From contig CAZCNP010000002.1 in assembly GCA_964500725.1 (NCBI GenBank), positions 69,347 through 133,346 on the forward strand: a DNA stretch of 64,000 nt, written 5' to 3'. Positions 16,093 through 29,594 of the stretch are shown piece after piece. The DNA comes from an uncultured Gammaproteobacteria bacterium. GTDB taxonomy: Bacteria > Patescibacteriota > Microgenomatia > Daviesbacterales > UBA10151. Numbering within the stretch: the stretch's first letter is position 1; each line of letters begins with the position of its first letter. Below the pieces are notes generated by a model, which was not told where the DNA came from, ran no database searches, and saw only the letters and a program-made list of their open reading frames with translations. The translations under genes and the position numbers were made by a program.

Positions 16093-17737
16093 AATTGCTT
16101 ATTGGCCACTATTGGTGATTTTGGTTTTATCAGCGCTAATTGTTTGGCCGCTTTTTTTGCCTGGGTATTTTTCTCACCATGATGATTTGCAGGTAATGAG
16201 AATATTTGAGATGAGAAAATGCTTGCAAGATTTGCAAATTCCCTGCCGTTGGGTACCAGATATGGGATATGGTAATGGTTATCCTCTATTTAATTACTAC
16301 AATCCTTTTCCATATTATTTAGGTGGAGTTTTAAGCTTTTTTCTGGGATTTATAGTATCAGCAAAAATTTTATTTTTTATTCCGCTGGTATTAGGTGGTT
16401 TTTCGATGTATCTTTTTGTTAAAGAAATATTTGGTAAAGAGCCAGCGCTTTTGGCAGCTGTTTTGCATCTTTTTGCTCCATATAGAGCACTGGACTCTTA
16501 TGTTAGGGGAGCAGTGGCAGAAAGTTTTGCTATAGCGCTGATCCCACTAGTTTTATATTTTGCTTTAAAACTTATCAAAGAAAATACAAAAAAATATTTA
16601 ATCTATCTGGCAGTTACTTTGGCAGCATTTTTGACCAGTCACACAATTATGACAATGTTATTTTTACCGGTATTATTAAGTTTAATATCTTACTGGGTAT
16701 GGGTAGAAAAAAGGGGTTTTTATGTAATATTTGGGCTGCTTTTAGGGATTGGATTATCAGCATTTTTTACCCTACCTGCATATTTTGAAAAAAACTTAGT
16801 CCAGATAGATAATTTAGCAAGACTGGATTTAGATTTTAGAGCACATTTTGTCACATTACCTCAGCTTTTTTTAGATAGATCATGGGGGTATGGAGCTTCT
16901 TTTTCCGGCCCTTCAGATACCATATCTTTTCAAGTAGGTTGGCCCCACTGGATTTTAGTTTTTTTATCTATACCTTTGGTATTAATATTAAAAAGAAAAA
17001 ACACTAAACTTCTAGTTTTTTATCTGGGAACCTTAATAGTTTTTATGTTATCAATTTTTATGACCCACAATAAGTCAGCATTTATCTGGGAAAAGATTGG
17101 ACTTTTAAGATTTACTCAATTTCCTTGGAGATTTTTGTCGGTGACAATTTTTACTACATCAATATTGGGGGCATTCTTAATCTATGCTTTAAATCAAAAA
17201 TTAAAAAAAGTGTTAACTATTATTTTAGTTATTATAATAGCTGGTCTTAATTGGAATTATTTCAGGCCTTATCAATTTATCTTTGGTTTGACAGATCAAG
17301 AAAAGCTGTCTGGGAAAGAGTGGGAAACACAGCAAAAAGCTTCTATTTTGGATTACTTGCCTGTTGGAGCCAGAGAGCCGATAGAACCTGCTCCGAATGA
17401 GCCTATTATCAGAAAAGGTCAGGCCAAGACTGACTTTTTTGAGAAAAGATCTAATAGCTGGAAGTTGGGTATAGATGTAAAATCTACCTCAGAAGTAGAA
17501 ATTCCAGTGATAGATTTTCCTAATTGGAAAGTTTTTGAAAACGGAAAAGAGATTAAACATTCAAATGATAATTTTGTAAAAAGGATTAGTGTGAATTTGT
17601 CTCCAGGCAAACACTTACTTTTGGGAAAACTGACAGATACACCGATTAGAACTATTAGTAATGTTATTTCTCTCTTATCTTTACTGGTTGTTTTTTACCT
17701 AATCTTTTATGATGGAAGCAGAAAAATTTTTAAATAA
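16079..17737 (+). CDS. Tandem paralog 2 of the HDD/Cys-Cys family; putative GT-C glycosyltransferase.
   Basis: YFSHHDDLQVMRIFEMRKCLQDLQIPCRWVPDMGYGNGYPLFNYYNP, FPWRFL, LTDTPIRT. Start at the internal Met (MKNLRIAYWP) to minimise overlap. Confidence 0.7.
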   Translation: MKNLRIAYWPLLVILVLSALIVWPLFLPGYFSHHDDLQVMRIFEMRKCLQDLQIPCRWVPDMGYGNGYPLFNYYNPFPYYLGGVLSFFLGFIVSAKILFFIPLVLGGFSMYLFVKEIFGKEPALLAAVLHLFAPYRALDSYVRGAVAESFAIALIPLVLYFALKLIKENTKKYLIYLAVTLAAFLTSHTIMTMLFLPVLLSLISYWVWVEKRGFYVIFGLLLGIGLSAFFTLPAYFEKNLVQIDNLARLDLDFRAHFVTLPQLFLDRSWGYGASFSGPSDTISFQVGWPHWILVFLSIPLVLILKRKNTKLLVFYLGTLIVFMLSIFMTHNKSAFIWEKIGLLRFTQFPWRFLSVTIFTTSILGAFLIYALNQKLKKVLTIILVIIIAGLNWNYFRPYQFIFGLTDQEKLSGKEWETQQKASILDYLPVGAREPIEPAPNEPIIRKGQAKTDFFEKRSNSWKLGIDVKSTSEVEIPVIDFPNWKVFENGKEIKHSNDNFVKRISVNLSPGKHLLLGKLTDTPIRTISNVISLLSLLVVFYLIFYDGSRKIFK

Positions 17738-19388
17738 ATACTCTTTTTTGATAATATTTTTATTATCAATTCCTGCAGCTTGGGCTCTTTTTGTGCCAGG
17801 GTTTTATGGGGCGTCTGATGATATTCATATAGCCTGGTTAAATCAATTTCACAAGACTTTGATGATGGGTCAAATCCCGCCCAGATTTGTTCCTGATTTA
17901 AGTTTTGGGTTCGGTTATCCTTTATTTAATTTTGTCTTTCCTTTACCATTTTATATAGGAGAGAGCTTTCACCTGTTAGGACTGTCGCTGGTTGATAGTA
18001 TAAAAGCAGTATTTTTTATTAGCATCCCCTTGTCAGGAATATTTATGTATTTGCTGCTGAGGCAATTTACTACAGTTAGCTTTAGTTTAGTGGGAGCAAT
18101 ATTGTATATTTACACCCCTTATAGGGCAGTAGATCTTTATATCAGGGGAGCAATAGGGGAGATTGTTAGTTTTGCAATACTGCCTTTGATACTATTATCA
18201 GTTATAAAAATTATTAAATTTCAATCTATAAGGTGGGTTGGAATAGGAGCACTCTCTCTCGCTTCCCTAGTCTTGTCGCATAATATTACTGCTTATATGT
18301 TTTTTCCTTTTGTAGGATTGTTTCTGATTATACAGATTCTGTTTTTACCCACAAAATGGAAAATTATCCAGCAAACCTTTTTGATGATAATTTTGGGACT
18401 TTTGATCAGCATCTATTTTTGGTTGCCTGCAATAGTGGATAGCGGTCTTATGAAATATGATACTGTTTTTAATTTCTCAGATCATTTTCCCACCATTTTA
18501 CAACTTATTAAACCCTATTGGGGTTACGGCGGGTCTGTTCCTGGGCCTTATGACGGGATGTCATTCTTTTTAGGAGGCGCCAATGTTTTGATTTTGATTT
18601 TTGGTATAGTTATCCTTTTGCTGAAGTGGAAAAAGATTGAAATTGAAAAGAAAATATTGCTAAGTTGGGCTTTGACAGTAATTGCTGTTTCTGTTTTTCT
18701 AATGAATCACCGCTCAGCTTTTGTTTGGGCAAGTGTTCCGATGTTGCCATATTTTCAATTTCCCTGGAGATTTTTAATTTTAACCACCTTTTTTATTCCG
18801 CTTTTAGTTATAGTTTTGGAACAGTTTAAATATAAAAAGTACTTACCTTGGGTTTTGTTGGCAGTAATAGTCGTACCAGCAATATCATACTTTTACCCTC
18901 AAGACTTTTTGGGTAGAAAAGATGAATACTTTCTTAATCGTTATGTTCCTTACCCAACCGCCAGTGAGGAATATAAAAAGACCCAAGAAGAATATCTGCG
19001 GCTGCCAAAGAATACACAAATAAGGCCTGATAAGATTTATCCTGTGGTAACTGGAAATAATTTAAATATTCAGCAGTTAAAAATATTAAATCAGTTAAAT
19101 AGTGTTTTCAAGGTAGAATCAGACAGACAGACAACAGTAAACTATAATAAATATTTTTTTCCAGGCTGGGCAGTTACGGTGGATAATAAAAGAGTTGATG
19201 TTAAAGCAGGATCCCCTTTTGGTCAAATTACTTTTACAGTTCCTGCAGGTGCGCATATGGTAAGAGTTAGTTTTGAGGAAACTCAAGCTAAGAGAGTGCT
19301 GGATGCTATATCTTTGGTTAGTTTTTTAGTATCATTAGGTTTGATTAAAAGTTTATGGATTCGATCAAAAAAAGCTGGCCTTTCTTAG
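17709..19388 (+). CDS. Tandem paralog 3 of the same family (most divergent; lacks the Cys pair).
   Basis: FYGASDDIHIAWLNQFHKTLMMGQIPPRFVPDLSFGFGYPLFNFVFP, FQFPWRFL. Same length and predicted topology. Confidence 0.65.
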   Translation: MMEAEKFLNKYSFLIIFLLSIPAAWALFVPGFYGASDDIHIAWLNQFHKTLMMGQIPPRFVPDLSFGFGYPLFNFVFPLPFYIGESFHLLGLSLVDSIKAVFFISIPLSGIFMYLLLRQFTTVSFSLVGAILYIYTPYRAVDLYIRGAIGEIVSFAILPLILLSVIKIIKFQSIRWVGIGALSLASLVLSHNITAYMFFPFVGLFLIIQILFLPTKWKIIQQTFLMIILGLLISIYFWLPAIVDSGLMKYDTVFNFSDHFPTILQLIKPYWGYGGSVPGPYDGMSFFLGGANVLILIFGIVILLLKWKKIEIEKKILLSWALTVIAVSVFLMNHRSAFVWASVPMLPYFQFPWRFLILTTFFIPLLVIVLEQFKYKKYLPWVLLAVIVVPAISYFYPQDFLGRKDEYFLNRYVPYPTASEEYKKTQEEYLRLPKNTQIRPDKIYPVVTGNNLNIQQLKILNQLNSVFKVESDRQTTVNYNKYFFPGWAVTVDNKRVDVKAGSPFGQITFTVPAGAHMVRVSFEETQAKRVLDAISLVSFLVSLGLIKSLWIRSKKAGLS

Positions 19389-21058
19389 TGGGTTTGGTTT
19401 TATCAGTAAGTTTGCTTTGGCCTCTATTTGTTGCTCCTTTGTTTGCCCATCATGATGATGTGCAGGTGATTAGGCTTTATGAGATGGATAAATGTTTTAA
19501 GGATGGCCAGATCCCTTGCAGATGGGTGCCTGATTTAGGTAATTTGTATGGGTATCCTCTATTTAATTATTATGCTCCACTTCCTTATTACTTTGGGGAA
19601 TTGATTCTTAATCTAACGCGGAGCTTGATAATTTCAGTTAAGGTTATGTTTGCCGTGGCTTTTTTAGGTTCCTACATTTTTATGTATCTTTTAACAAAGA
19701 AATTTTGGGGAGTTTTGGGAGGAAGCTTATCTGCAATATTTTATACTCTTATACCCTATCATGCCTTAGATTTCTACGTTAGGGGCGCAATGGGTGAGAT
19801 GTGGGGATTGATGTTTTTTCCAGCTGTGCTTTGGAGCTTATATAGACTTTATGAAAAAGGAAATATTGCCAATACAACACTTTGCGCAGTATTTATAGCA
19901 GGGCTTTTAACTTCACACAACCTTTCATCCATGCTTTTTATACCTATTGCTATTGTTTGGGTATGGTTTCTGTTTTTTCAAAAGCCAGTTAAAAAGTTTT
20001 TGGTGTTTGTTTTAATTTCTGCAGTGTTAGGTATTTCTCTTGCCTCGTTTTATTTGTTTCCTATGTTACTGGAGAAAAATTTAGTGCATGTTAATACCAC
20101 CACTTATGGTTATTTTTCATACACGGAACATTTTAAAGGATTTAAAAAGTTATTTTTAGATAGATCTTGGGGGTGGGGAGCATCAGTCAGGGAAGTTCCA
20201 GGAGGTGAAAAAGACGGTTTATCTTTTCAAATTGGCTGGGTGCATCTTTTAGGGTGGATATTGGCTGTGATTGCAGCCTGTCAATTGTGGAAGAAGCAAA
20301 GATTTTTAAGCCTAGCAATCGTTCTTTCTTCGACAGTTATCCTATTTAGTATTTTTATGGTACATCCTAGGTCAGAATTTATTTGGAAAAGCATTGAACC
20401 TTTAAAGTTTCTTCAATTCCCTTGGAGATTTTTAATGCTAATCTCCTTATTTATTTCTTTTTGCGTAGGTAGCGCATTACTTTTAGTTAAAAGAAAGATT
20501 GTGATGTGGTTGGGACTTGTGATTGCTGTTTTTGTTTTTAATTTTTCTTACTTCCGTCCAGAAAAATTTTTGTTTATTACAGACAAAGATCTTTTACAGG
20601 GTTCCAATTGGGACCGGCAGATCAAAAGATCCATTTTTGATTACCTGCCTATATACGCCAAAGAACCGCCAGCAGAGCTTGCAAGCGCAAGGTATGAAAT
20701 TATCACAGGAGATAGTAAAATTTTTGATTTCAATGAGGGAACCAATTGGTTTAATTTTAAAACTGAGACCAGTTCTCATACTATCATCCGTTTGTCGCAG
20801 TATTATTTTCCTGAGTGGAAAATATATTTAGACGGCAAGGAAGCACAAGTAGAGTATACAAATAACAGCTTAGGGTTGATGACACTAATTTTGGGAAAAG
20901 GAAATCACAAAATTACGGCAAGACTTTATGATACACCAGTAAGATCTGCGTCAAATATAATAACCGCAGTAGGTTTTATAGTAACTATAATATTATTTTT
21001 AACCTCTATTGAAAGGGTCCGCCATTGGATTGCATATTATAAAAAAAGGATGAATTAA
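19355..21058 (+). CDS. Tandem paralog 4 of the HDD/Cys-Cys family; putative GT-C glycosyltransferase.
   Basis: LFAHHDDVQVIRLYEMDKCFKDGQIPCRWVPDLGNLYGYPLFNYYAP, FLQFPWRFL, LYDTPVRS. Confidence 0.7.
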   Translation: MDSIKKSWPFLVGLVLSVSLLWPLFVAPLFAHHDDVQVIRLYEMDKCFKDGQIPCRWVPDLGNLYGYPLFNYYAPLPYYFGELILNLTRSLIISVKVMFAVAFLGSYIFMYLLTKKFWGVLGGSLSAIFYTLIPYHALDFYVRGAMGEMWGLMFFPAVLWSLYRLYEKGNIANTTLCAVFIAGLLTSHNLSSMLFIPIAIVWVWFLFFQKPVKKFLVFVLISAVLGISLASFYLFPMLLEKNLVHVNTTTYGYFSYTEHFKGFKKLFLDRSWGWGASVREVPGGEKDGLSFQIGWVHLLGWILAVIAACQLWKKQRFLSLAIVLSSTVILFSIFMVHPRSEFIWKSIEPLKFLQFPWRFLMLISLFISFCVGSALLLVKRKIVMWLGLVIAVFVFNFSYFRPEKFLFITDKDLLQGSNWDRQIKRSIFDYLPIYAKEPPAELASARYEIITGDSKIFDFNEGTNWFNFKTETSSHTIIRLSQYYFPEWKIYLDGKEAQVEYTNNSLGLMTLILGKGNHKITARLYDTPVRSASNIITAVGFIVTIILFLTSIERVRHWIAYYKKRMN

Positions 21059-21062
21059 GTTT

Positions 21063-22535
21063 ATGGACGAAAGCGTTGAACAGACTGATCCCACAGAAGA
21101 ATTGGCGCCAGATGCTATAAGCAAACAAGTTAAAAAGGGTGTAGCAATATTAACCTTTCGGACAATAATTATTCAAGCAATTTCATTTTTTTCAAATGCC
21201 TTACTAACAGTATTTCTTTTACCAGTGGAATACGGGGTATTTTTTCTTGTATCTGCCGTAATAAACTTTCTTGCCTATTTTAGCGATATTGGATTTGCTG
21301 CCAGCTTGATTCAGAAAAAGAAACTTGAACACGATGATCTAAAGACAGTGTTTACAGCGCAGCAAATTTTGGTATTAGGGCTAATAGTTATAGTTTTATT
21401 GATGACTCCTTTTATAAGTAGTTTTTATAAGTTTGATCAGGCAGCTTTATACCTGCTTTGGGCGCTAGCTTTATCTTTAGTTTTCTCTTCCCTTAAAACA
21501 ATACCTTCAGTTTTGCTGGAAAGAAAATTGGAATTTAACAAATTGGTTATACCTCAAATTATCGAAACTATTGTTTTTAGTATAACTACTGTTTATCTTG
21601 CCTGGAAGGGCTTTGGGGTGACCAGTTTTACAATTGGAGTAATTGCTAGGGGGTTTTTTGGTTTGGTAGCCACATATATAGTTTCTCCTTGGGTGCCTAA
21701 GATTTCCTTTTCTACCGAGTCTTTCAGATCAATAATGAAGTTTGGGATCCCATACCAAGCAAATACATTTTTGGCGATGATAAAAGATGATGGTATGACA
21801 TTGTTTTTAGGTGGCATTTTGGGAGCAGGGGGAATTGGACTTCTGGGATGGGCTCAGAAGTGGGCTTATGCTCCTCTGAGATTTTTTATGGATCAAGTAA
21901 TAAAGGTTACTTTTCCAGCTTTTTCTAGATTACAGGATAATAGAAAGGAATTATCAGATTTGGTAAGTAAATCAATCTTTTTTATCTGTTTTCTAGTTTT
22001 TCCTTCACTTGTTATGCTATTACTTTTAGCGCCAACTTTAGTAACGATTATTCCAAAATACATTAAATGGAGCCCAGCGCTCTTTGCATTATCTGTCTTA
22101 ACAGTTACCTCAGGGTTGGCTGCAATTACTACACCTTTGACTAATACCTTAAACGCTATAGGTAAAATATCCCTGACTTTTAAGTTTATGATTATGTGGA
22201 CAGTACTGACTTGGGTTTTTGTTCCCCTTCTTGCTTATCTTTACGGCTTAAATGGCGCTGCAATTGGATTTACATTAGTAGGTTTTAGTTCTTTTGTAGC
22301 ATTATATCTAGTATCTAAGTATGTAGATATAAACTATCTTCAAAGTGTTGGAAAGCCTTTACTTGCTTCGGCAGTTATGGGAATTTTTGTTTTTATTATA
22401 AAAAATATTTTACTTGTATCATGGCAGCAGATTATCGTTATGGTTGGTGTTGGCGCAGTTGTATATTCATTGATGATGATTATGGTTGAACCAAAGCTTT
22501 TACTACTAATTAAAGATCAATTTAAAAAGAAGTAA
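21063..22535 (+). CDS. Wzx-like oligosaccharide / polysaccharide flippase (MOP superfamily).
   Basis: 490 aa, about 14 TM helices, polysaccharide-biosynthesis-protein architecture (FLAYFSDIGFAASLIQKK, C-terminal hydrophobic repeats). Confidence 0.7.
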   Translation: MDESVEQTDPTEELAPDAISKQVKKGVAILTFRTIIIQAISFFSNALLTVFLLPVEYGVFFLVSAVINFLAYFSDIGFAASLIQKKKLEHDDLKTVFTAQQILVLGLIVIVLLMTPFISSFYKFDQAALYLLWALALSLVFSSLKTIPSVLLERKLEFNKLVIPQIIETIVFSITTVYLAWKGFGVTSFTIGVIARGFFGLVATYIVSPWVPKISFSTESFRSIMKFGIPYQANTFLAMIKDDGMTLFLGGILGAGGIGLLGWAQKWAYAPLRFFMDQVIKVTFPAFSRLQDNRKELSDLVSKSIFFICFLVFPSLVMLLLLAPTLVTIIPKYIKWSPALFALSVLTVTSGLAAITTPLTNTLNAIGKISLTFKFMIMWTVLTWVFVPLLAYLYGLNGAAIGFTLVGFSSFVALYLVSKYVDINYLQSVGKPLLASAVMGIFVFIIKNILLVSWQQIIVMVGVGAVVYSLMMIMVEPKLLLLIKDQFKKK

Positions 22536-25500
22536 TGAAGAAACTAATATTTCTATTATTGTGCTTGCTGTCAACATTTATTGCCCCTGTAGCTTTTGCT
22601 CAAGGCAATTCTTTTGTCTCAATTGTAAACCCTGTCAGGGGTGATGATTTCTGGGACTTAAAAGATCAAAAGATAGAGACTGCAGTATTAGGACAAATAG
22701 AAATTTTAAATAACTTTACCTTGCCTGCTACATGGTTGATAAGATTTGATGCTTTGGATGAGGGTAGGGTTATCAGAGAATTAAAAAATAGATATCAGGA
22801 CGAAAAGGGTTTATTTTTAGAGGTTACTCCAACTTGGGCTGAAGCAGCGGAAGTTAAATACCGTAAATCCAGTAGTTGGCATGCAGCAGGTAGCGCTTTT
22901 TTAACAGGGTATGAAAGAGATGAAAGAGAAAAACTAATAGATAAAAGTTTTGAAAGGTTTGAAAAAGTCTTTGGATATTTCCCAAAATCTGTAGGAGCAT
23001 GGTGGATAGATAGTTACTCCTTAGACTATATGCAGAATAAATATGGAATAACCTCTGGTTTAATAGTTGCAGACCAGTATACAACTGATAATTACCAAAT
23101 TTGGGGTCAATACTTTTCCACTCCTTATTATCCTGATAAGAAGAACGCTCTTCATCCAGCCCAATCAGAGGAGAATAAAATCCCAGTAGTCTTGTCTCAA
23201 TGGGCAGCAAGGGATCCTGTTAATGGGTATGGAAATGGAGTTTTTGAAAGCACGTTTAGTGTACAACCGAATGATTATATTGATTATCACGAGCTGGATA
23301 CTAATTATTTCTCCAAACTTGTTAATTTATACACAAATCAAGGAATTAATCAATTTGGAGCAATTGTAGTAGGACTGGAAAATACTTACGATTGGAATAA
23401 ATACCAAAATGAGTATAAAAATCAGATCAGCTTTTTAAAACAAAGAAATCAGAAAGGTTTGTTAAGCGTTGTAACATTAGGAGATTTTGCTGATTGGTAT
23501 CAAAAAACTTTTCCCCAAGTTTCTCCAGAGCATGTAATTGTTGCAGATGATCCTCTGGGTTTAAATAAAAAAGTAGTCTGGTTTATGAATCCTTATTATA
23601 GAGTTGGGTGGTTTTATAATAATGACGGAAGTGTGATTAGGGATATCAGGCAATATGTAGAAGGTGAAGAAGAGATCTGTTTTCAAAAAAGCTGCAGTGA
23701 AGTTAACTTTGCAACTTTTGCAACAAGAGTTTTGGATGAGGTAACTTACGGACATAAATTGCTAATTGATGAAGGTGAAATTTCTGATTTTAAAGCTTCA
23801 AGAATAGAGGAAAAGATTAGGATTAGTTATCTAAATGAGGCAGGCAAGCACAGAACAGTTGAATTTTTACCAAGAGATATCAGCATTGATGGAAAAATTT
23901 CCTCTATTGATAGAACTATTCTTGATGCAATTAAGCAGGATACTTCGGAGCAAAACAAACAGACTGATTTTAAAGAAGGAAGTTTTAGCTGGAGTATTGC
24001 AGGAGTGCTATCAAAATCAATTAAGTTTTTATTTTTTTTACTGATAGTTTGTTTGGCGCCAGGACTGATTTTTGCTCATAAATTAATTAAGGAAAATGAA
24101 TTTTTAGCATTAAAGATATTTTTAGCGCTAGTTATTGGAATTGTTTTGTTGACAGTAATGTTTTATATAACAAGCGCATTAAATTTAAGACTATTGCTAC
24201 CTTTGTATATTTTGGCAGCTTTATTATTTTTTATCAAAACTAAACAATTTACTCTGTTTCAGATTAAGCCTCCTAAAGCAATAGACAAACTACAAATAGC
24301 AGCTGTAATTGTAGTTATTTTAGGCACAATTTTTCAAAATATCCCCACTTTCAAAAGTGGTTTAACTTTTTCTTTTGGAATGGGTTTTTGGGGACCCAAT
24401 ACACATGATGGAATCTGGCATATCAGTTTAATAAATCAGTTGATTGCAGGTTTCCCAGTTGAAAACCCAATTTATGCAGGCACTGTGTTAAAAAATTATC
24501 ATTTTTTCTATGATTTGTTAGTTGCATCAGTTGCCTTGATTACTAGACTTCCTGTTGTTGATTTGGTTTTTAGGTTCTTTCCTTTACTTTTTTCTTTATT
24601 ATTAGGGCTTGGTACTTATTATCTTGCAATAAAGCTTTTTACAAGTAGAGTTGGAATAGTAAGAGCAAAAATAGCTGCAATTTTTAGTTTATATTTTGTT
24701 TATTTTGCAGGAAGTTTTGGTTGGATTGTAGAATATATAAAGCAAAAAAGTTTTGGCGGGGAGTCTGCATTTTGGGCAAATCAAGCAATTTCATATAATC
24801 TTAATCCTCCGTTTGCGGTTTCGCTTTTAATAATAATCGCTCTTGTTTACTTGTTGATTATGCATCAGAGAAGAAGTCTATATTGGATATTTACAACAGT
24901 TTTATTGACTGGAAGTTTGATAGGCTTTAAAGCATATGGTGCAGTTTTAATACTAGTATCTTTGTTTGCAATATCAATAGTACATATTTTAAAAAAGGAT
25001 TTTTCATATTTTTTTGTTTTTGTTTTTTCTTTAATTATTACTTTAATAATATTTTTATCAAATTTTGAGCAAAGCGAACAGCTGATTGTTTTTTCTCCTT
25101 TTTGGTTTATTCATTCAATGATAGATTCTCCAGATAGAGTCGGTTGGATTAGGTTAACGATGACTAGAATTGTGGGTTTCCAAACACAGAACTATTTAAA
25201 AATATTTTATGCTGAAGGTTTAAGTCTGCTGATTTTTATTGCTGGAAATTTGGGGATGAGAATATTAAGTCTTTTTTTGCTGCTTAAAATAAAAAGCATC
25301 TCTTCCTCTGGAGGACTTATTATATTAATATTTTCCTTAGCCTCATTTTTAATTCCAACACTCTTTATTCAATCAGGTAATCCTTGGAATACAATTCAAT
25401 TTACTTATTACGGTCTTTATATGACAGCAGTCATTAGCGGTTTGGTGCTATCCTCTTTATTTTTTAGTATTCCTAAGCTGTTATCTATTTTACTAATAAT

Positions 25501-25987
25501 ACCAATATTAATACTAACTCCTATAAATTCAATTACCACAGCCTCTTATTATACGGGTTTTTTGCCTCACGGAAGAGTTGATCATAAAGAATTACAAGCT
25601 CTACATTTTTTATCTTACCAGGATGATGGTGTTGTGCTTACAGTTCCATATGATAAAAAATTAAGGAGTAAAGTTTCAGAACCTTGGCCGCTGTTTATAT
25701 ATGATAGTACTGCTTATGTGTCTGCTCTATCTAAAAAAAGTGTTTACCTGGAGGATGAGCCGCAAAACCAAATCCTTTTGACAGATTACACGAAAAGGTT
25801 AGTCACATCAAAAGACTTTTTCTTAAGACCTATATCAGAAAATCTACAATTCTTAAAAGAGAACAGGATAAAATATATTTATATTCCAAAAATATACAAT
25901 CTAAGACTTGATGAAAGTTCTGGGACAATAATGAACCTTTTCGAGAACGAAGAAGTGGTGATTTATAAAGTGGTCAAATTAGTATGA
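22535..25987 (+). CDS. Large 1150-aa protein: signal peptide, extracytoplasmic domain of about 480 aa of unknown (possibly carbohydrate-active) function, then a polytopic HDGIWHI-motif membrane domain.
   Basis: Signal peptide MKKLIFLLLCLLSTFIAPVAFAQG. C-terminal half has about 14 TM helices with FWGPNTHDGIWHISLINQLIAGFPVENPIYAGTVLKNYHFFYDLL, shared with the next ORF. Confidence 0.6.
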   Translation: MKKLIFLLLCLLSTFIAPVAFAQGNSFVSIVNPVRGDDFWDLKDQKIETAVLGQIEILNNFTLPATWLIRFDALDEGRVIRELKNRYQDEKGLFLEVTPTWAEAAEVKYRKSSSWHAAGSAFLTGYERDEREKLIDKSFERFEKVFGYFPKSVGAWWIDSYSLDYMQNKYGITSGLIVADQYTTDNYQIWGQYFSTPYYPDKKNALHPAQSEENKIPVVLSQWAARDPVNGYGNGVFESTFSVQPNDYIDYHELDTNYFSKLVNLYTNQGINQFGAIVVGLENTYDWNKYQNEYKNQISFLKQRNQKGLLSVVTLGDFADWYQKTFPQVSPEHVIVADDPLGLNKKVVWFMNPYYRVGWFYNNDGSVIRDIRQYVEGEEEICFQKSCSEVNFATFATRVLDEVTYGHKLLIDEGEISDFKASRIEEKIRISYLNEAGKHRTVEFLPRDISIDGKISSIDRTILDAIKQDTSEQNKQTDFKEGSFSWSIAGVLSKSIKFLFFLLIVCLAPGLIFAHKLIKENEFLALKIFLALVIGIVLLTVMFYITSALNLRLLLPLYILAALLFFIKTKQFTLFQIKPPKAIDKLQIAAVIVVILGTIFQNIPTFKSGLTFSFGMGFWGPNTHDGIWHISLINQLIAGFPVENPIYAGTVLKNYHFFYDLLVASVALITRLPVVDLVFRFFPLLFSLLLGLGTYYLAIKLFTSRVGIVRAKIAAIFSLYFVYFAGSFGWIVEYIKQKSFGGESAFWANQAISYNLNPPFAVSLLIIIALVYLLIMHQRRSLYWIFTTVLLTGSLIGFKAYGAVLILVSLFAISIVHILKKDFSYFFVFVFSLIITLIIFLSNFEQSEQLIVFSPFWFIHSMIDSPDRVGWIRLTMTRIVGFQTQNYLKIFYAEGLSLLIFIAGNLGMRILSLFLLLKIKSISSSGGLIILIFSLASFLIPTLFIQSGNPWNTIQFTYYGLYMTAVISGLVLSSLFFSIPKLLSILLIIPILILTPINSITTASYYTGFLPHGRVDHKELQALHFLSYQDDGVVLTVPYDKKLRSKVSEPWPLFIYDSTAYVSALSKKSVYLEDEPQNQILLTDYTKRLVTSKDFFLRPISENLQFLKENRIKYIYIPKIYNLRLDESSGTIMNLFENEEVVIYKVVKLV

Positions 25988-27972
25988 ATATATTCCTTCA
26001 AATATTATTAGGCTTAGGATTTTTATTAGTAGTTTTTATTTGTCTTGTTCTGCCCGGCTATGCTATTTTAAGAAAATTTTTATCAGATTTGGATAAACTT
26101 GAACAATTTACAATCTCAAGTATCCTTGGTTTAGTGGTGTTTACTTTAGTTGCATATACTCTAGCGGTTGTTAATTTAAGGTTTTTAATGTGGGTTTTTC
26201 CTATTGCAGGAGTCTGGGTAATTTATAAATTTAGACAAGAAATACTCTCATTTAAATTAAATATCTCTCGTAAGGCAATTTTTCTTACAGTCTTGATTTT
26301 AGGGGTCATAGGGATGGTAGCAGTTAATGCTCCGTCAGGCTTTCCTTATACAAATGGGATATATTTTTATAGCTCACATGGTCACGACGGAATTTGGCAT
26401 ATTGCTTTAATGGAGCATATGAAAAATTCAATATTCCCTTTTCAGAATCCAGAACTAACCGGAGCAAAACTACAAAATTATCATTTTTTTGTTGATCTTT
26501 TAATGTCTGAATTTAGTAGGATGTTTCGTTTTTCTTCCTTGGATATTTATTTTAGATTTATGCCAGTAGTATTTGCAATTTTATTAGGACTTGGCAGTTT
26601 TATATTTGTAAGAGCTTGGAGTAAATCTGAGGCAGCAGGTATTTGGGCAATGATATTTACATATTTTGCAGGTAGTTTTGGGTATTTATTATATGTTCCA
26701 ACACATAAAAGCTTAGGAGGAGAATCAATATTTTGGGTATCTCAAACACAATCGGTTTTGGGTAATCCTCCCCATGCAGCTGCATTTATTATTGCCTCAG
26801 TGTGTTTATTTATATTCTTAAAGTATCTAGCGACTCGAAGGTTAATCTATTTCCTGCTTTGCGCAATTTTGGTAGGTTCGATTATCGAGTTTAAGGTTTA
26901 TGCAGGAGTTCTAATTCTGGGAGGATTTTTACTTGTAGGAATTTATGAATTATTTTTTAAAAAAATATTTAGTACTATTTTATTGTTTTTGACTACATTT
27001 TCTATTTCATTGCTTATATATTTACCTAACAGCCAAAACTCGCAGGATTTTTTGCTTTGGCAACCATGGTGGTATATCAGGACAATGGTTGTTGCATCAG
27101 ATAGGCTCAATTGGTTAGATTTGGAACTTAGAAGGCAGACCTATATTTCAGAGAACAATTGGAAGCGGGTAATACAAGTTGAGGCAACTGCATTTGTTAT
27201 TTTCTTGTTAGGTAATTTGGGGATGAGGTTTTTAGGATTTTGGACTTTTATTAAAAAGATAAAATTAAATTTATTTAAAAGTACTTTTGATATATTTTTT
27301 CTTTCAATTACTTTAGCCTCTTTTTTTATCCCAGTATTTTTTTTGCAAAAGGGTGTTGCGTGGAACTCTATACAATTTAACCAGTATTTTCTGCTATTTT
27401 TTGGCTTTCTGGCAGCAGTTTCAGTAGCTGAAATAATATCTTTTGTTAAAAATAGATTGGCCAAAGTGATTATTTCATTATTAATAATTATTCTTGCTGT
27501 TCCTACCCAAATTGGATTATTGTGGCAGTTTTATTCCAATACTGCGCTTTCGAAAATAACTTATAAAGAGCTTGATGCTTTAAATTTCTTAAAAAATAAA
27601 TCTCCAGAAAAGGCAATCGTATTGACTGCTCCGTTTAATGGTTACGAAAGAGATAAATATACTAATCCTCCAATACCTATATATGCTTGGTATGATACAG
27701 GCTATGTTTCTGCCTTTTCTGGAAAGTCAACTTTAATAGCAGATGAAGAGCAGGTAAACATCATGGGATACGATGTGGAACAATTATTAAAAGAGAGGAA
27801 AGAGGCTTTTGAAAGTGATAATTTTGGGATAATGAATAATTTCTTAAAAAAATATAATATAAATTTTATATACCTTGTTTGGAATCAAAAGATTACAGCC
27901 AATAAAGGGTCCTTAAACGCTGATTTAGTTTTTCAAAATGAAGATGCTAAGGTATTTAAGGTAAGACAATGA
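25984..27972 (+). CDS. Polytopic membrane protein, paralog of the C-terminal domain of the preceding gene (HDGIWHI family); putative glycan polymerase or GT-C transferase.
   Basis: YSSHGHDGIWHIALMEHMKNSIFPFQNPELTGAKLQNYHFFVDLL is the same loop motif. ATGA overlap with the upstream gene. C-terminal soluble domain of about 150 aa. Confidence 0.6.
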   Translation: MNIFLQILLGLGFLLVVFICLVLPGYAILRKFLSDLDKLEQFTISSILGLVVFTLVAYTLAVVNLRFLMWVFPIAGVWVIYKFRQEILSFKLNISRKAIFLTVLILGVIGMVAVNAPSGFPYTNGIYFYSSHGHDGIWHIALMEHMKNSIFPFQNPELTGAKLQNYHFFVDLLMSEFSRMFRFSSLDIYFRFMPVVFAILLGLGSFIFVRAWSKSEAAGIWAMIFTYFAGSFGYLLYVPTHKSLGGESIFWVSQTQSVLGNPPHAAAFIIASVCLFIFLKYLATRRLIYFLLCAILVGSIIEFKVYAGVLILGGFLLVGIYELFFKKIFSTILLFLTTFSISLLIYLPNSQNSQDFLLWQPWWYIRTMVVASDRLNWLDLELRRQTYISENNWKRVIQVEATAFVIFLLGNLGMRFLGFWTFIKKIKLNLFKSTFDIFFLSITLASFFIPVFFLQKGVAWNSIQFNQYFLLFFGFLAAVSVAEIISFVKNRLAKVIISLLIIILAVPTQIGLLWQFYSNTALSKITYKELDALNFLKNKSPEKAIVLTAPFNGYERDKYTNPPIPIYAWYDTGYVSAFSGKSTLIADEEQVNIMGYDVEQLLKERKEAFESDNFGIMNNFLKKYNINFIYLVWNQKITANKGSLNADLVFQNEDAKVFKVRQ

Positions 27973-29594
27973 GAAAAACTATTTTAAGAAAAAAATTGCT
28001 TTTTTTAATTGTGATACTTGGGTTAATACTTCGTATTTTACTCATAGATAGCGCTCCGCCATCATTATACGGAGACGAGCTTACTATTGCTCTAGATGCG
28101 CAATCTTTACTTAAAACAGGGCGTGATCAGTTAGGTAATTTTTTACCGCTTACTTTTTCTATGGGGGCAGGGAGACCAGCGGGGTATGTCTACGGATCCA
28201 TTCCATTTGTAGCATTATTCGGGCCAACCGCCTTAGGAGTCAGAACACTATCAATAATCTCTGGTTTAGCAATTATCATATTACTGTATCTTCTTGGTAG
28301 AAGAGTTCTTGGAGAAAAAACAGGACTTTGTGCAGCTGCCATTGGGGCTATCTCTCCTTGGGATATATCTTTAAGTAGGGGAGGATTTGAAGCCCATCTT
28401 GCCTTATTGTTGGCATTGCTGGGAACTTATCTTTTTTTAAGGGCATCAGAGAAACCTATGTTTTATATATTGTCAGCATTAAGCTTCGGATTGACCCTGC
28501 ACACATATCCTACGTATAAGGTGAGTCTGCTTTTGTTTTTTCCGTTACTGTTTTGGTATCAGGGGGGCAGAAAAATTTTAATGAATGGTAAAAAATATTT
28601 CTTAAGTGGAGTCTTAGTGCTTTTCTTTTTAGGTATTTTATCTTTCAGTCAAACCTTTATTGGCGGGTCAGAAGTCAGATTTTTTAATATAAATATTTTT
28701 TCCCAAAAAGAGTTAAAAAGCTTCATTGAACAAAAAATTAATTTTGAAAGGCAAATATCTAAATTGCCTAAAACTGTTAGAAAATATTTTCATAATAAAC
28801 CGGTCGAATATACAAATGTCTTTATTGACAACTATCTAAAAAACTTTTCACTGGACTTTTTAATATTGCAAGGAGATGGAAATCCCCGCCACAATATGGC
28901 AACTACTGGCCAAATTTATACCGTAGAAATATTTTTGATTATTATTGCAATTTTGACCTTTTGGCAAAAAGAGAAAAGGTTAATATTATTTTTATTGCTT
29001 TGGATTCTTTTAGCGCCAGTTCCCACGGCAATTGTTGATTTGCCACATGCTTTGAGAAGTTCTTTTATGATGCCTCCGTTGATTATACTTTCTGCATTAG
29101 GATTAGTTACAATCCTAAAGTTTCAAAGTAGGATACCACTAGTATTGGTATCTATATTCTTCTTTATTCAGTTTGTATTTTTTATTCAAAAGTTGTATTT
29201 CTTGGCTCCAAACGAATACAGCAACTTTTGGTCGTATCCTGCAAAATTTGCCTCAGAGATTGCACTTGAAAATAGGGAAAAATATGACTTTATAATTCTT
29301 TCTGATAAGATTGAGTCTGTGGAGTTTGCTTACCCTGTTTATTCAAAAACTGATCCAAATTTAATAATTGATCAAAATAAAAATAAGAATATGTTTTTTG
29401 GTTATCGGTTAAAAAAATATGGTAATGTATTTATTGGTAATATTGTAGATACTGGTTTTGAGGAAGCTATTAACAATATTCCAGGTTCTGTTTTATACAT
29501 TGGATCCAAATACGAGGGGAATTCTTTTGTTGATTATGAAATAATTAATGGACTTGATGAACAAGCAGCATTAGTAGTAAAAAAGAAACATTAA
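27969..29594 (+). CDS. ArnT/PMT-family GT-C membrane glycosyltransferase (DE-motif paralog).
   Basis: PPSLYGDELTIALDAQSLLKTGRDQLGNFLP, ISPWDISLSRGGFEAH and LPHALRSSF motifs shared with the genes at 38028, 39695 and 42952. Confidence 0.72.
   Translation: MRKTILRKKLLFLIVILGLILRILLIDSAPPSLYGDELTIALDAQSLLKTGRDQLGNFLPLTFSMGAGRPAGYVYGSIPFVALFGPTALGVRTLSIISGLAIIILLYLLGRRVLGEKTGLCAAAIGAISPWDISLSRGGFEAHLALLLALLGTYLFLRASEKPMFYILSALSFGLTLHTYPTYKVSLLLFFPLLFWYQGGRKILMNGKKYFLSGVLVLFFLGILSFSQTFIGGSEVRFFNINIFSQKELKSFIEQKINFERQISKLPKTVRKYFHNKPVEYTNVFIDNYLKNFSLDFLILQGDGNPRHNMATTGQIYTVEIFLIIIAILTFWQKEKRLILFLLLWILLAPVPTAIVDLPHALRSSFMMPPLIILSALGLVTILKFQSRIPLVLVSIFFFIQFVFFIQKLYFLAPNEYSNFWSYPAKFASEIALENREKYDFIILSDKIESVEFAYPVYSKTDPNLIIDQNKNKNMFFGYRLKKYGNVFIGNIVDTGFEEAINNIPGSVLYIGSKYEGNSFVDYEIINGLDEQAALVVKKKH

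What the first reader, a model, noticed from the sequence alone, without database searches (positions are those of the whole stretch)
22535..27972. Pair of HDGIWHI-motif polytopic proteins, one carrying an extra secreted N-terminal domain of about 480 aa.
ORFs 22535 and 25984 share a loop motif, HDGIWHI(S/A)L........P..NP...G..L.NYHFF.DLL, that I cannot assign to a known family. The first copy is preceded by a cleavable signal peptide and a large soluble domain, possibly hydrolase- or deacetylase-like. This suggests a coupled polymerase/transferase and glycan-modifying enzyme. Both follow the first Wzx flippase directly, the position where a Wzy-type polymerase would normally sit.
Basis: seen in the sequence. 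Interest (0 to 1): 0.65.

Follow-up and report, generated by a model that had tools for sequence, protein, structure and literature searches.

The report
Wzx-linked orphan GT-C glycosyltransferase pair
Two neighbouring membrane proteins of a Candidatus Daviesbacteria (CPR) genome belong to a large family with no curated profile that folds like the GT-C membrane glycosyltransferases (closest to oligosaccharyltransferases), and one of them carries an extra secreted enzyme-like barrel, so this is a new branch and architecture of a known enzyme class rather than a new kind of system.

Summary
ORFs 22535..25987 (1150 aa) and 25984..27972 (662 aa) are paralogs (31% identity over about 660 aa, E=1e-91) and share the HDGIWH...NYHFF.DLL loop. 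Neither matches Pfam, NCBIfam or PDB sequences.

- **Membrane part:** an AlphaFold2 model (pLDDT 91) matches only GT-C-fold glycosyltransferases. STT3/AglB/PglB score best (E about 1e-9 to 1e-10), followed by DPY19, AftA, ArnT, AftD, Pmt4 and EmbB. No Wzy, WaaL or SEDS structure appears in the 50 hits listed.
- **Motif:** the Asp of HDGIWH is invariant in 136/136 family representatives and lies in the first extracytoplasmic loop. The oligosaccharyltransferase WWDYG motif is not conserved.
- **N-terminal domain:** the model (pLDDT 95) is a DUF3863-like barrel plus beta-sandwich. The top hit is PDB 3LM3, then CE4 deacetylases and GH57/GH38. It lacks the CE4 His-His pair.
- **Fusion and context:** the fusion is genuine, with more than 110 protein clusters of 1119-1166 aa. 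In 24 of 31 fusion genes examined it lies directly downstream of a Wzx flippase.

Best reading: two glycosyltransferases acting outside the membrane on a lipid-linked glycan flipped by Wzx, one with a built-in glycan-processing domain. Donor, acceptor and N-domain activity are inferred, not shown.

The parts
21063..22535 (+). Wzx-type (MOP) flippase, the conserved upstream partner
   Evidence: PF13440 Polysacc_synt_3 E=2.9e-55. Its stop overlaps the next start codon (TAATG). A Wzx gene lies directly upstream of 24 of 31 N-domain fusion genes in other genomes. One library representative, P0369 (1639 aa), has Wzx, N-domain and membrane part in a single called protein.
22535..25987 (+). Paralog 1 (1150 aa): signal peptide, DUF3863-like domain, linker and GT-C membrane glycosyltransferase with C-terminal domain
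   Evidence: ORF. Identical protein P0241 is in public data. Local HMMs hit the N-domain at aa 25-464 (E=1.6e-183) and the membrane family at aa 494-1147 (E=1.2e-254).
22535..22600 (+). Predicted Sec signal peptide (aa 1-22, MKKLIFLLLCLLSTFIAPVAFA)
   Evidence: Read directly from the sequence: basic n-region, hydrophobic core, AFA|Q site. No predictor was run.
22604..23905 (+). Extracytoplasmic DUF3863-like domain (aa 24-457): beta/alpha barrel of the GH/CE superfamily plus a beta-sandwich
   Evidence: AF2 model has pLDDT 95.4 and pTM 0.93. Foldseek top hit is 3LM3 at E=1.3e-16, TM 0.61/0.65, followed by CE4, PuuE, GH57 and GH38. The alignment profile hits 3lm3 at E=2.5e-6. Pfam DUF3863 scores only 12-15 bits on homologs against a cut-off of 27.
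24014..25555 (+). Polytopic GT-C_A-type membrane core of paralog 1 (aa about 494-1007)
   Evidence: Aligns with paralog 2 over its full length. The paralog 2 model is GT-C.
24404..24520 (+). HDGIWH...NYHFF.DLL loop of paralog 1 (first extracytoplasmic loop, putative catalytic Asp at aa 625)
   Evidence: Translation. Family-wide invariance of the Asp, Tyr and His.
25556..25984 (+). C-terminal extracytoplasmic alpha/beta domain of paralog 1
   Evidence: Translation. Homologous to aa 519-662 of paralog 2, whose model region matches the AglB-S2 C-terminal globular domain 3vu0 (prob 0.99-1.00, E 0.1-0.3).
25984..27972 (+). Paralog 2 (662 aa): the same GT-C family without the N-domain; predicted N-terminus outside, 3 extra plus about 11 core transmembrane helices, and a C-terminal domain
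   Evidence: AF2 pLDDT 91.0, pTM 0.91. Foldseek hits: STT3/AglB/PglB at E 6e-10 to 1e-7, DPY19 1e-8, AftA 2e-5, ArnT 3e-4, AftD 5e-4. The ATGA overlap with paralog 1 is.
26383..26502 (+). HDGIWH...NYHFF.DLL loop of paralog 2 (D135, Y166, H167, D171)
   Evidence: Translation. In 50%-identity representatives D135 is conserved in 136/136, Y166 in 136/136, H167 in 136/136 and H139 in 134/136. The motif starts a helix at aa 132-146 that follows a transmembrane helix at aa 97-112.
27969..29594 (+). PMT_2-type GT-C glycosyltransferase, the conserved downstream neighbour
   Evidence: PF13231 E=1.3e-11. Start overlaps the stop of paralog 2. A PMT_2 gene follows 27 of the 54 unfused full-length family genes scored, about half.
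14392..21058 (+). Four tandem PTPS_related (PF10131) GT-C-like paralogs, the conserved upstream block
   Evidence: Pfam hits. Paralogy at 30-40% identity. A PTPS_related gene precedes Wzx in most Daviesbacteria loci.

Best explanation
Both proteins are integral-membrane glycosyltransferases of the GT-C_A structural class. They belong to a large family found mainly in Microgenomates-group CPR bacteria that has no Pfam or NCBIfam model.

**Shown at the fold and conservation level**
- The active site faces the outside of the cell.
- The HDGxWH loop is the start of the first extracytoplasmic loop. Its invariant Asp (D135 in the 662-aa protein) is the likely catalytic or metal-binding carboxylate.
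- Other invariant residues lie in outward-facing loops or near the loop-membrane boundary: Y166/H167, D171, E247, K304, D373/R374, R415, Q455, Q464. They could bind the phosphate(s) of a polyprenyl-linked donor and the acceptor.

**Inferred mechanism**
- The adjacent Wzx, which is probably translationally coupled, flips a polyprenyl-diphosphate-linked oligosaccharide.
- The two paralogs then transfer that glycan, or extend it, on the outer face. They share only 31% identity, so they probably have different specificities or steps.
- This would work like an oligosaccharyltransferase without being a GT66 member.
- In paralog 1 the secreted DUF3863-like barrel plus beta-sandwich sits next to the active site. 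It trims, modifies or holds the same glycan.

The product is probably a rhamnose-containing surface glycan or glycoprotein, built together with the roughly 15 other GT-C, GT2 and GT4 enzymes of this 64-kb cluster.
For: **Fold**
- The AF2 model of the 662-aa protein has pLDDT 91.
- The first 31 Foldseek PDB hits are all GT-C_A enzymes, and hit 32 is an AglB C-terminal domain. Oligosaccharyltransferases score best, at E 6e-10 to 1e-7.

**Topology**
- The N-domain carries a signal peptide.
- Three helices separate it from the helix that precedes the motif.
- The loops at aa 31-37 and 83-96 are Lys/Arg-rich, so they should be cytoplasmic. This places the HDGIWH loop and the C-terminal domain outside.

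**Conservation**
- D135, Y166, H167, K304 and Q464 are invariant in 136-147 representatives clustered at 50% identity.
- The family has 2028 representatives at E<=1e-3.

**Link to Wzx**
- The junctions overlap.
- Wzx lies directly upstream of 24 of 31 fusion genes across Daviesbacteria, Shapirobacteria and other Patescibacteria.
- A 1639-aa representative has Wzx, N-domain and membrane part in one called protein.
- Among GT-C_A families only GT66 uses lipid-PP-oligosaccharide donors (PMC10920833, Table 1).

**N-domain**
- pLDDT 95. 3LM3 scores E=1.3e-16 by fold and 2.5e-6 by profile.
- Invariant residues R12, E73, D136, Q158, D162, W167, W200, R203, D224 and E259 sit at or just after the barrel strands seen.

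**Domain co-occurrence**
- The N-domain also occurs in stand-alone proteins of about 676 aa. Their C-terminus matches the C-terminal domain of the GT-C family (51 of 120 proteins; P0172 at E=2.9e-8). The two outer domains therefore travel together.

**Public annotation**
- UniRef already names one ortholog 'Glycosyltransferase RgtA/B/C/D-like domain-containing protein'.
Against: - No sequence-level link to any characterised GT-C was found. hhalign against the window's PTPS_related and PMT_2 paralogs gives probabilities of 1.1% and 6.7%.
- TM-scores to all GT-C structures are only 0.41-0.52. They do not separate oligosaccharyltransferases from AftA or ArnT.
- The WWDYG motif that defines oligosaccharyltransferases is not conserved.
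- Most GT-C_A families use lipid-P-monosaccharide donors. The window also encodes the parts of such systems: a GT2-GtrA fusion at 7489..8676 and a GT2-PMT_2 fusion at 9877..12072.
- The Wzx link is not universal. The 28 Woesebacteria-type family genes have no Wzx within 6 kb, and only 5 of 19 'core' forms have one upstream.
- No priming phosphoglycosyltransferase was seen in the window.
- There is no experimental data on any family member and no literature.
Confidence: 0.45

Rival explanations
1. They are GT-C_A glycosyltransferases that add single sugars from polyprenyl-monophosphate donors (such as polyprenyl-P-hexose) to a growing extracellular glycan, as ArnT, PMT, Aft/Emb and YfhO-type enzymes do. 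On this reading the position next to Wzx reflects membership of one large operon, not donor supply.
For: - Four of the five GT-C_A CAZy families listed in PMC10920833 Table 1 use lipid-P-monosaccharide donors.
- TM-scores to AftA (0.52/0.57) and ArnT (0.41/0.48) are as good as those to oligosaccharyltransferases.
- The WWDYG motif is absent.
- The window holds many GT2 enzymes, a GT2-GtrA/DPMS fusion and a GT2-PMT_2 fusion.
- Many family members are embedded in PMT_2/PTPS_related arrays with no Wzx nearby.
Against: - Wzx lies directly upstream of 24 of 31 fusion genes, across deep divergence.
- The start and stop codons overlap, and one representative has Wzx in the same called protein.
- Foldseek E-values favour GT66 by 4-6 orders of magnitude over AftA and ArnT.
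- The C-terminal domain resembles that of AglB.
Confidence: 0.3
2. One or both proteins replace Wzy and/or WaaL functionally. A GT-C_A-fold enzyme would polymerise the Wzx-flipped repeat unit, and the second paralog would ligate the polymer to its final acceptor. The DUF3863-like domain would control or trim chain length.
For: - The pair sits directly after Wzx, where wzy often lies.
- No Wzy_C or other Wzy-like family turned up in the Pfam scans of the window's ORFs of 150 aa or more.
- The order Wzx, then fusion, then paralog is conserved: 21 of the 29 full-length fusion genes scored are followed by the unfused paralog.
Against: - No GT-C_A enzyme is known to polymerise PP-linked repeats. 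Known polymerases and ligases fall in GT-C_B or other clans.
- No structural hit to WaaL, RodA or FtsW appears in the 50 hits listed.
- Three polytopic ORFs in the window have no Pfam hit or only a sub-threshold one, and a divergent Wzy could hide among them (41261..42880, 50710..52521, 59428..62139).
- The full Pfam list showed only 25 of 51 families.
Confidence: 0.15
3. The 1150-aa ORF is an artefact, two genes merged by an assembly or frameshift error, or the proteins are non-catalytic membrane scaffolds or transporters.
For: - Truncated or frameshifted versions exist in some assemblies (P0121 and P0122, 764 and 756 aa, ending out of frame).
- Some genomes have the first paralog without the N-domain (L006, L017, L068).
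Against: - More than 110 independent clusters hold full-length fusions of 1119-1166 aa, and 32 of 78 species loci carry one.
- The AF2 models are confident.
- Transporter hits (MFS and others) have probability of about 0.16 or less.
- Invariant charged residues lie in outward-facing loops and near the loop-membrane boundary.
Confidence: 0.03

Closest known systems
Oligosaccharyltransferases STT3 / AglB / PglB (CAZy GT66, Pfam PF02516)
   Same: - Best structural matches: E 6e-10 to 1e-7, probability 1.0, alignments of about 610-730 columns.
- The same overall plan: a polytopic GT-C_A core followed by a C-terminal extracytoplasmic alpha/beta domain. That domain matches the minimal AglB-S2 C-terminal domain 3vu0.
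- An invariant Asp in the first outer loop.
- Encoded next to a flippase for lipid-linked oligosaccharide.
   Different: - No sequence match to PF02516 or to any PDB oligosaccharyltransferase.
- The WWDYG motif is not conserved; the corresponding stretch reads (Y/W)-x-(S/T/D)-(T/S)-x-Y.
- HD(G/A)xWH replaces DxD.
- About 11 core helices plus 0-3 extra N-terminal helices, instead of 13.
- TM-scores are only 0.44-0.49.
Other GT-C_A enzymes: AftA/AftD/EmbB (mycobacterial arabinosyltransferases), ArnT (GT83), PMT (GT39), DPY19 C-mannosyltransferase
   Same: - Same fold class: AftA E=2e-5 (TM 0.52/0.57), ArnT 3e-4, AftD 5e-4, DPY19 1e-8, Pmt4 2e-2.
- They act outside the membrane on lipid-linked donors.
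- Several carry extra extracytoplasmic domains. From my own knowledge these are carbohydrate-binding modules in Emb and AftD and the MIR domain in PMT.
   Different: - No detectable sequence relation.
- The extra domain here is an enzyme-like GH/CE barrel, not a carbohydrate-binding module.
- The donors of these families are lipid-P-monosaccharides, and they are not typically paired with Wzx.
DUF3863 (PF12979), PDB 3LM3 (BDI_3119, Parabacteroides distasonis, 'putative glycoside hydrolase/deacetylase')
   Same: - The N-domain is a distant homolog. The profile scores E=2.5e-6.
- Foldseek gives E=1.3e-16 over 420 columns, TM 0.61/0.65.
- It has the same two-part build, a barrel plus a C-terminal beta-sandwich.
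   Different: - Below Pfam's gathering score (12-15 bits against 27), and the window protein itself gets no hit.
- 18% identity.
- Here it is fused to a membrane glycosyltransferase or to a single helix plus the GT-C-type C-terminal domain.
- DUF3863 itself has no known activity, and no paper was found.
CE4 (NodB) polysaccharide deacetylases, and PgaB as a bifunctional model
   Same: Same barrel superfamily (HP0310, MSMEG and PdaC-type structures at E 1e-8 to 1e-5). All are extracytoplasmic glycan-modifying enzymes.
   Different: - TM-score relative to the query is only 0.28-0.42.
- The Asp-His-His metal triad is not conserved; there is one near-invariant His in 111 sequences.
- PgaB itself is not among the 50 hits listed.
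Wzy-type polymerases / O-antigen ligases (Wzy_C, GT-C_B and related clans)
   Same: Same genomic position directly after wzx. Both are polytopic membrane proteins that would act on the flipped lipid-linked unit.
   Different: Different structural subclass: no WaaL, SEDS or Wzy-like hit appears in the 50 hits listed. There is no Wzy_C Pfam match.
PTPS_related membrane proteins (PF10131, Pfam GT-C clan from my own knowledge): the four upstream paralogs in this window
   Same: - They are co-localised and conserved in synteny.
- The best, non-significant, hhalign path lines up HDGIWH with their HDDVQV, and NYHFF with FNYY.
   Different: hhalign probability is 1.1% with E=0.049, so no demonstrable homology at the sequence level.

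Membership tests
GT-C_A fold glycosyltransferases (structural class) | Polytopic membrane core whose structure superposes on solved GT-C_A enzymes | tested here: met
   AF2 pLDDT 91. Foldseek PDB ranks 1-31 are all GT-C_A enzymes with probability 0.99-1.00. Transporters score a probability of about 0.16 or less.
GT-C_A fold glycosyltransferases (structural class) | Long first extracytoplasmic loop with short helices that carries a conserved catalytic or metal-binding acidic residue | tested here: inconclusive
   The loop at aa 113-184 has helices at 132-146 and 169-181. D135 is invariant in 136/136 and D171 is Asp in 121/136. The outside location follows from the signal-peptide fusion and positive-inside counts. 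Residue-level superposition on a known catalytic Asp could not be done.
GT-C_A fold glycosyltransferases (structural class) | Uses a polyprenyl-phosphate-linked sugar donor | not testable with these tools
   Only context is available: an adjacent Wzx and a glycan cluster.
Oligosaccharyltransferase GT66 (STT3/AglB/PglB) | Sequence membership (PF02516 STT3) | tested here: not met
   No Pfam hit at E<=1. The family profile finds no oligosaccharyltransferase in PDB sequences at E<=10.
Oligosaccharyltransferase GT66 (STT3/AglB/PglB) | WWDYG motif in the C-terminal domain (motif recalled from my own knowledge) | tested here: not met
   The only similar stretch is AWYDTGY in paralog 2 and IYDSTAY in paralog 1. 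Family-wide the Trp is mostly Tyr (95 Y, 22 W) and the Asp positions vary.
Oligosaccharyltransferase GT66 (STT3/AglB/PglB) | C-terminal extracytoplasmic globular domain of the AglB/PglB type | tested here: inconclusive
   Hits to the AglB-S2 C-terminal domain 3vu0 have probability 0.99-1.00 and target TM about 0.5, but E is only 0.1-0.3.
Wzy-type polymerase / O-antigen ligase (Wzy_C, GT-C_B) | Wzy_C or related profile match, and a fold like WaaL or SEDS | tested here: not met
   No Pfam hit. No such structure is among the 50 Foldseek hits listed.
PMT_2 / ArnT-like (PF13231) | Profile match above threshold | tested here: not met
   No hit for either window protein or for ortholog P0252. hhalign against the window's PMT_2 paralogs gives probability 6.7%. 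UniRef nevertheless names P0252 'Glycosyltransferase RgtA/B/C/D-like domain-containing protein'.
DUF3863 (PF12979): N-terminal domain | Pfam gathering score | tested here: not met
   The window protein has no hit at E<=1. Homologs score 12-15 bits against a cut-off of 27.
DUF3863 (PF12979): N-terminal domain | Homology and fold identity with the family's structure, 3LM3 | tested here: met
   The profile against 3lm3 gives E=2.5e-6. Foldseek gives E=1.3e-16, 420 columns, TM 0.61/0.65.
CE4 (NodB) deacetylases: N-terminal domain | Asp-His-His metal triad and catalytic His motifs (recalled from my own knowledge) | tested here: not met
   Among 111 aligned sequences only one His (H93 in domain numbering) is near-invariant. 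The invariant polar residues are R, D, E, Q and W. Only the fold is shared. This was judged from conservation, not from a residue-level superposition.

The most novel reading that the evidence does not exclude
This family would be a second lineage of GT-C_A enzymes, found mainly in CPR bacteria, that uses Wzx-flipped polyprenyl-diphosphate oligosaccharides. It would be a WWDYG-less sister of the oligosaccharyltransferases. The tandem pair would replace the classical Wzy polymerase and WaaL/PglL ligase steps, and the fused DUF3863-type barrel would supply a first biochemical role for that orphan domain family, namely trimming or editing the glycan at the point of transfer.
Probability: 0.2. Interest if true: 0.7.

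Novelty: new variant of a known kind. Interest (0 to 1): 0.45.

Why it matters
CPR/Patescibacteria are ultra-small, mostly uncultured bacteria. Their surfaces mediate attachment to hosts, yet their envelope glycobiology is essentially unknown.

- **Scale.** This window devotes about 64 kb to glycan assembly, with roughly 16 GT-C-type membrane enzymes. The HDGIWH family alone has about 2000 representatives at 50% identity and has no Pfam or NCBIfam profile, although UniRef already names one ortholog as GT-C-like.
- **Immediate value.** Assigning the family to the GT-C_A fold improves annotation straight away. The invariant residues give mutagenesis targets, and the conserved Wzx partner gives a testable pathway.
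- **If the donor is a Wzx-flipped diphosphate-linked oligosaccharide.** The family would be only the second GT-C_A family known to use such donors, and a possible new tool for glycoengineering.
- **The fusion.** It also gives the orphan DUF3863 domain a functional context.

If the enzymes simply add single sugars from monophosphate donors, the finding is a routine new GT-C family.

Tried and rejected
- **Sequence libraries.** Pfam, NCBIfam and PDB-sequence searches with the single proteins and with family profiles gave no significant or relevant hit for the membrane part.
- **hhalign against the neighbours.** Comparison with the window's own PTPS_related and PMT_2 paralogs was not significant (probability 1.1% and 6.7%). 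The HDG/HDD line-up is only suggestive.
- **hhalign of A2 against A1.** This is trivial, because both alignments contain the fusion proteins, so I discarded it. The shared C-terminal domain was shown with hmmsearch instead.
- **A degenerate WWDYG (AWYDTGY).** Rejected after family-wide conservation showed that the Trp and Asp positions are not kept.
- **CE4 deacetylase identity for the N-domain.** Rejected because there is no conserved His pair.
- **Assembly merger of two genes.** Rejected.
- **Promoter and terminator scan of 14000-33600.** Counts equal those of shuffled sequence, so it is uninformative.
- **Literature.** Searches for DUF3863, PF12979, 3LM3, Patescibacteria with GT-C, and CPR with oligosaccharyltransferase found nothing relevant.
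- **Further family members in the window.** None were found.
- **Pfam on ten divergent representatives.** No family was found beyond the Wzx part of P0369.

Full report
**1. Observation**

The ORF listing shows two uninterrupted ORFs on the + strand: 22535..25987 (1150 aa) and 25984..27972 (662 aa). BLASTP of one against the other gives 31% identity (208/663), E=1e-91. The alignment runs from residue 505 to 1146 of the long protein and from 19 to 660 of the short one. They are full-length paralogs, and the long one has about 490 extra N-terminal residues.

The long protein begins MKKLIFLLLCLLSTFIAPVAFA|QG, a classical Sec signal by direct reading.

The upstream gene 21063..22535 is a Wzx/MOP flippase (PF13440, E=2.9e-55). 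The three genes overlap at their junctions (TAATG, ATGA), and the next gene, a PMT_2 family member at 27969, also overlaps. All of this points to a single operon.

**2. The fusion is real**

The protein identical to the 1150-aa ORF is in public data (P0241). More than 110 further 90%-identity clusters of 1119-1166 aa cover both parts. A related genome and an independent Logan contig show the same order: Wzx, then a 1134-aa fusion, then a 660-aa paralog, then PMT_2.

In a scan of one genome per species, 319 stretches encode family members. The 78 loci kept come mainly from Daviesbacteria, Woesebacteria, Shapirobacteria, Blackburnbacteria and other Microgenomates/Patescibacteria. A few records carry other names (see section 8).

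My HMM-based annotation of those loci found the following:

| Feature | Count |
|---|---|
| Loci with an N-domain fusion | 32 of 78 |
| Fusion genes scored | 31 |
| Fusion genes with Wzx directly upstream on the same strand | 24 of 31 |
| Fusion genes followed by the unfused paralog | 21 (all among the 29 full-length fusions) |

One library representative, P0369 (1639 aa), has Wzx, N-domain and membrane part in a single called protein. Some assemblies hold truncated, frameshifted copies (P0121, P0122). These are the exception.

**3. What the membrane part is**

Neither protein, nor ten divergent family representatives, matches any Pfam model. NCBIfam and PDB sequences also give nothing for it. 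The family is nevertheless large: 2028 representatives at 50% identity with E<=1e-3, and 997 with E<=1e-30.

An AlphaFold2 model of the 662-aa protein, built on 71 sequences from both paralog groups, is confident (pLDDT 91.0, pTM 0.91). Foldseek against the PDB returns only GT-C_A glycosyltransferases in ranks 1-31:

| Structure | E-value |
|---|---|
| STT3 (inferred for the translocon entries), AglB and PglB oligosaccharyltransferases | 6e-10 to 1e-7 |
| DPY19 | 1e-8 |
| AftA | 2e-5 |
| ArnT | 3e-4 |
| AftD | 5e-4 |
| Pmt4, EmbB | about 1e-2 |

Rank 32 is the C-terminal globular domain of AglB-S2 (3vu0). Transporter folds follow with a probability of about 0.16 or less. No WaaL, SEDS or Wzy-type structure appears in the 50 hits listed.

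TM-scores are moderate (0.41-0.52) and do not by themselves separate oligosaccharyltransferases from AftA or ArnT. By the classification summarised in PMC10920833 (Table 1), GT-C_A comprises GT53, GT83, GT39 and GT57 (lipid-P-monosaccharide donors) and GT66 (lipid-PP-oligosaccharide donors). Wzy-type polymerases, O-antigen ligases and SEDS proteins belong to other classes.

**4. Anatomy and topology**

The model shows helices at 2-30, 38-62, 66-88 and 97-112. An outer loop follows at 113-184, with a beta-hairpin and two short helices (132-146, which starts with HDGIWH, and 169-181, which contains D171). About ten more transmembrane helices come next, then a C-terminal alpha/beta domain at 519-662.

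In the fusion the signal peptide puts the N-domain outside. Three helices then lead to the canonical GT-C first helix (aa 97-112 in the short protein's numbering), so the HDGIWH loop is outside. The Lys/Arg-rich loops at 31-37 and 83-96 agree with this by the positive-inside rule, which I applied by direct reading.

Family variants support the view that the three N-terminal helices are an add-on. Forms of about 565 aa start at profile position about 95-100. Woesebacteria forms start at about 40. Fusions of 1019-1026 aa join the N-domain to the core.

Conservation across 150 representatives at 50% identity:

| Residue (662-aa numbering) | Conservation |
|---|---|
| D135 | 136/136 |
| Y166, H167 | 136/136 each |
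| H139 | 134/136 |
| K304 | 147/147 |
| Q464 | 147/147 |
| Q455 | 147/148 |
| N261 | 141/142 |
| R415 | 139 R + 8 K |
| E247 | 129 E + 7 D |
| D171 | 121 D + 10 N |
| D373, R374 | 131 each |

Both window paralogs keep all of these residues, so both are probably active. An invariant Asp at the start of the first outer loop, together with further carboxylates and basic residues in outer loops or near the loop-membrane boundary, is the GT-C active-site pattern. I could not superpose residues on a solved structure, so this is an inference.

The stretch AWYDTGY, which looked like a degenerate WWDYG, is not conserved. Membership of GT66 therefore fails on its defining motif and on sequence.

hhalign against the window's own PTPS_related and PMT_2 paralogs is not significant. 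The best path does align HDGIWH with HDDVQV.

**5. The N-terminal domain**

A 111-sequence alignment gives a model with pLDDT 95.4. It shows a beta/alpha barrel (strands up to about residue 290 of the domain), a beta-sandwich (310-434) and a long helix that leads to the membrane.

Foldseek's best hit is 3LM3 (BDI_3119, 'putative glycoside hydrolase/deacetylase'; DUF3863) at E=1.3e-16 over 420 columns, TM 0.61/0.65. CE4 deacetylases, PuuE, GH57 and GH38 follow. The alignment profile finds 3lm3 by sequence at E=2.5e-6. Pfam's DUF3863 model scores only 12-15 bits on homologs, and nothing on the window protein.

The invariant residues are R12, E73, D136, Q158, D162, Y164, W167, W200, R203, Q221, D224 and E259 (domain numbering). 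By the secondary structure, most lie at or just after barrel strands, where this superfamily has its active site. This pattern suggests a working carbohydrate-active enzyme.

Only one His is near-invariant, so the CE4 Asp-His-His metal site is not kept. No publication on DUF3863 was found.

The same domain also occurs in stand-alone proteins of about 676 aa, built as N-domain, one transmembrane helix and a C-terminal domain. In 51 of 120 such proteins the C-terminus matches the C-terminal domain of the GT-C family profile (for example P0172, E=2.9e-8, profile positions 466-658). The two extracytoplasmic domains therefore go together with or without the glycosyltransferase core.

**6. Surroundings**

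The window is one large glycan-assembly region. It contains:

- dTDP-rhamnose-type genes at 2874..7424;
- a GT2-GtrA/DPMS fusion at 7489..8676;
- a GT2-PMT_2 fusion at 9877..12072;
- four PTPS_related paralogs at 14392..21058;
- seven or more PMT_2 genes;
- a PIG-V-like GT-C at 46325..47554;
- a second Wzx-like gene at 47542..48828;
- many GT2 and GT4 genes, and a carbamoyltransferase.

No Wzy_C and no priming phosphoglycosyltransferase were seen. However, three polytopic ORFs have no Pfam hit or only a sub-threshold one, and one search listed only 25 of 51 families.

**7. Mechanism and rivals**

- **Best supported (core claim about 0.9; full mechanism about 0.45).** These are outward-facing GT-C_A glycosyltransferases that act on the lipid-linked glycan delivered by the adjacent Wzx. 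That implies a diphosphate-linked oligosaccharide donor, as for oligosaccharyltransferases. Paralog 1 carries a glycan-processing domain.
- **Main rival (0.3).** Single-sugar addition from polyprenyl-P-sugars, as in most GT-C_A families. This is favoured by the absence of WWDYG, the equal TM-scores and the presence of three-component parts in the window.
- **More novel sub-case (0.15).** The pair replaces Wzy and/or the ligase.
- **Artefact or non-enzyme.** Essentially excluded.

**8. Comparison and novelty**

The proteins work like GT-C_A enzymes and look most like oligosaccharyltransferases. They are not members of GT66, PMT_2, Wzy_C or any curated family. The N-domain is a distant DUF3863 relative, not a CE4 enzyme.

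One ortholog already carries the automatic UniRef name 'Glycosyltransferase RgtA/B/C/D-like domain-containing protein'. The general class is therefore not a complete surprise.

What is new is this combination:
- a very large GT-C family, found mainly in CPR bacteria, with no curated profile;
- its own invariant HD(G/A)xWH...YH signature;
- conserved coupling to Wzx;
- fusion to a GH/CE-type barrel.

Verdict: a real feature and a new variant of a known kind, of moderate interest.

Noticed in passing
window 14392..21058 (+): Four tandem paralogs (559-567 aa, 30-40% identical) of the PTPS_related membrane family (PF10131), each with an HDD/SDD motif near the N-terminus. A copy precedes Wzx in most related genomes.
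   Followed up: partly
window 9877..12072 (+): A 731-aa protein that fuses an N-terminal GT2 domain (E=1.1e-29) to a PMT_2-type GT-C membrane domain (E=1.7e-12). It may combine a polyprenyl-P-sugar synthase and its GT-C transferase in one chain.
   Followed up: no
window 7489..8676 (+): A GT2 domain fused to a GtrA/DPMS transmembrane domain (PF04138, E=1.6e-21). This is the synthase/flippase half of a three-component extracytoplasmic glycosylation system.
   Followed up: no
window 41261..42880 (-), 50710..52521 (-), 59428..62139 (+): Three further large ORFs (539, 603 and 903 aa) with no significant Pfam hit; the 903-aa one has only a weak GT-C_AftD match at E=0.0044. They may be additional orphan GT-C or Wzy-like proteins.
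   Followed up: no
window 27969..29594, 33480..44550 (both strands), 12862..14385: At least seven PMT_2-type GT-C paralogs (21-36% identical). With the other GT-C genes the window holds about 16 membrane glycosyltransferases in 64 kb.
   Followed up: partly
window 46325..48828 (+): A PIG-V-like mannosyltransferase (PF04188, E=1.7e-11) is followed, with an overlap, by a second Wzx-like flippase (PF13440, E=5.8e-15). This is another pairing of a GT-C enzyme with a flippase.
   Followed up: no
window 2874..7424 (+): A run of nucleotide-sugar genes: NTP_transferase, 4,6-dehydratase/epimerase, dTDP-4-dehydrorhamnose 3,5-epimerase, RmlD-like reductase and a second 4,6-dehydratase. They suggest rhamnose or another 6-deoxyhexose in the glycan.
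   Followed up: no
window 52537..54249 (-) and 55189..57189 (+): A carbamoyltransferase (Carbam_trans_N/C) and a GT4-methyltransferase fusion. They suggest carbamoylated and methylated sugars.
   Followed up: no
P0369 (1639 aa, library representative; not in the window): A single called protein that combines Wzx (aa about 27-333 by Pfam), the DUF3863-like domain and the GT-C part (aa 985-1634). It is either a true three-way fusion or a lost stop at the 1-nt TAATG-type junction.
   Followed up: partly
P0150, P0197, P0172 and about 100 others; L027 1264..3354 (-): Stand-alone proteins of about 676 aa, built as DUF3863-like domain, one transmembrane helix and a C-terminal domain homologous to that of the GT-C family. 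They look like the fusion with the glycosyltransferase core removed.
   Followed up: partly
L001 15461..17455 (-), L003, L020: Some close relatives carry a third family paralog (about 660 aa) on the opposite strand a few kb downstream. The window has none.
   Followed up: partly
L003, L004 and many other loci; L039, L073: Many MAG records that hold these typical Daviesbacteria/Woesebacteria loci are titled 'uncultured Gammaproteobacteria bacterium'. One is titled Bathyarchaeia and one Clostridia. These are probably mislabelled or mis-binned records.
   Followed up: no
window 1805..2719 (+): A CAP/SCP-domain (cysteine-rich secretory protein family) protein lies just upstream of the sugar-nucleotide genes.
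   Followed up: no
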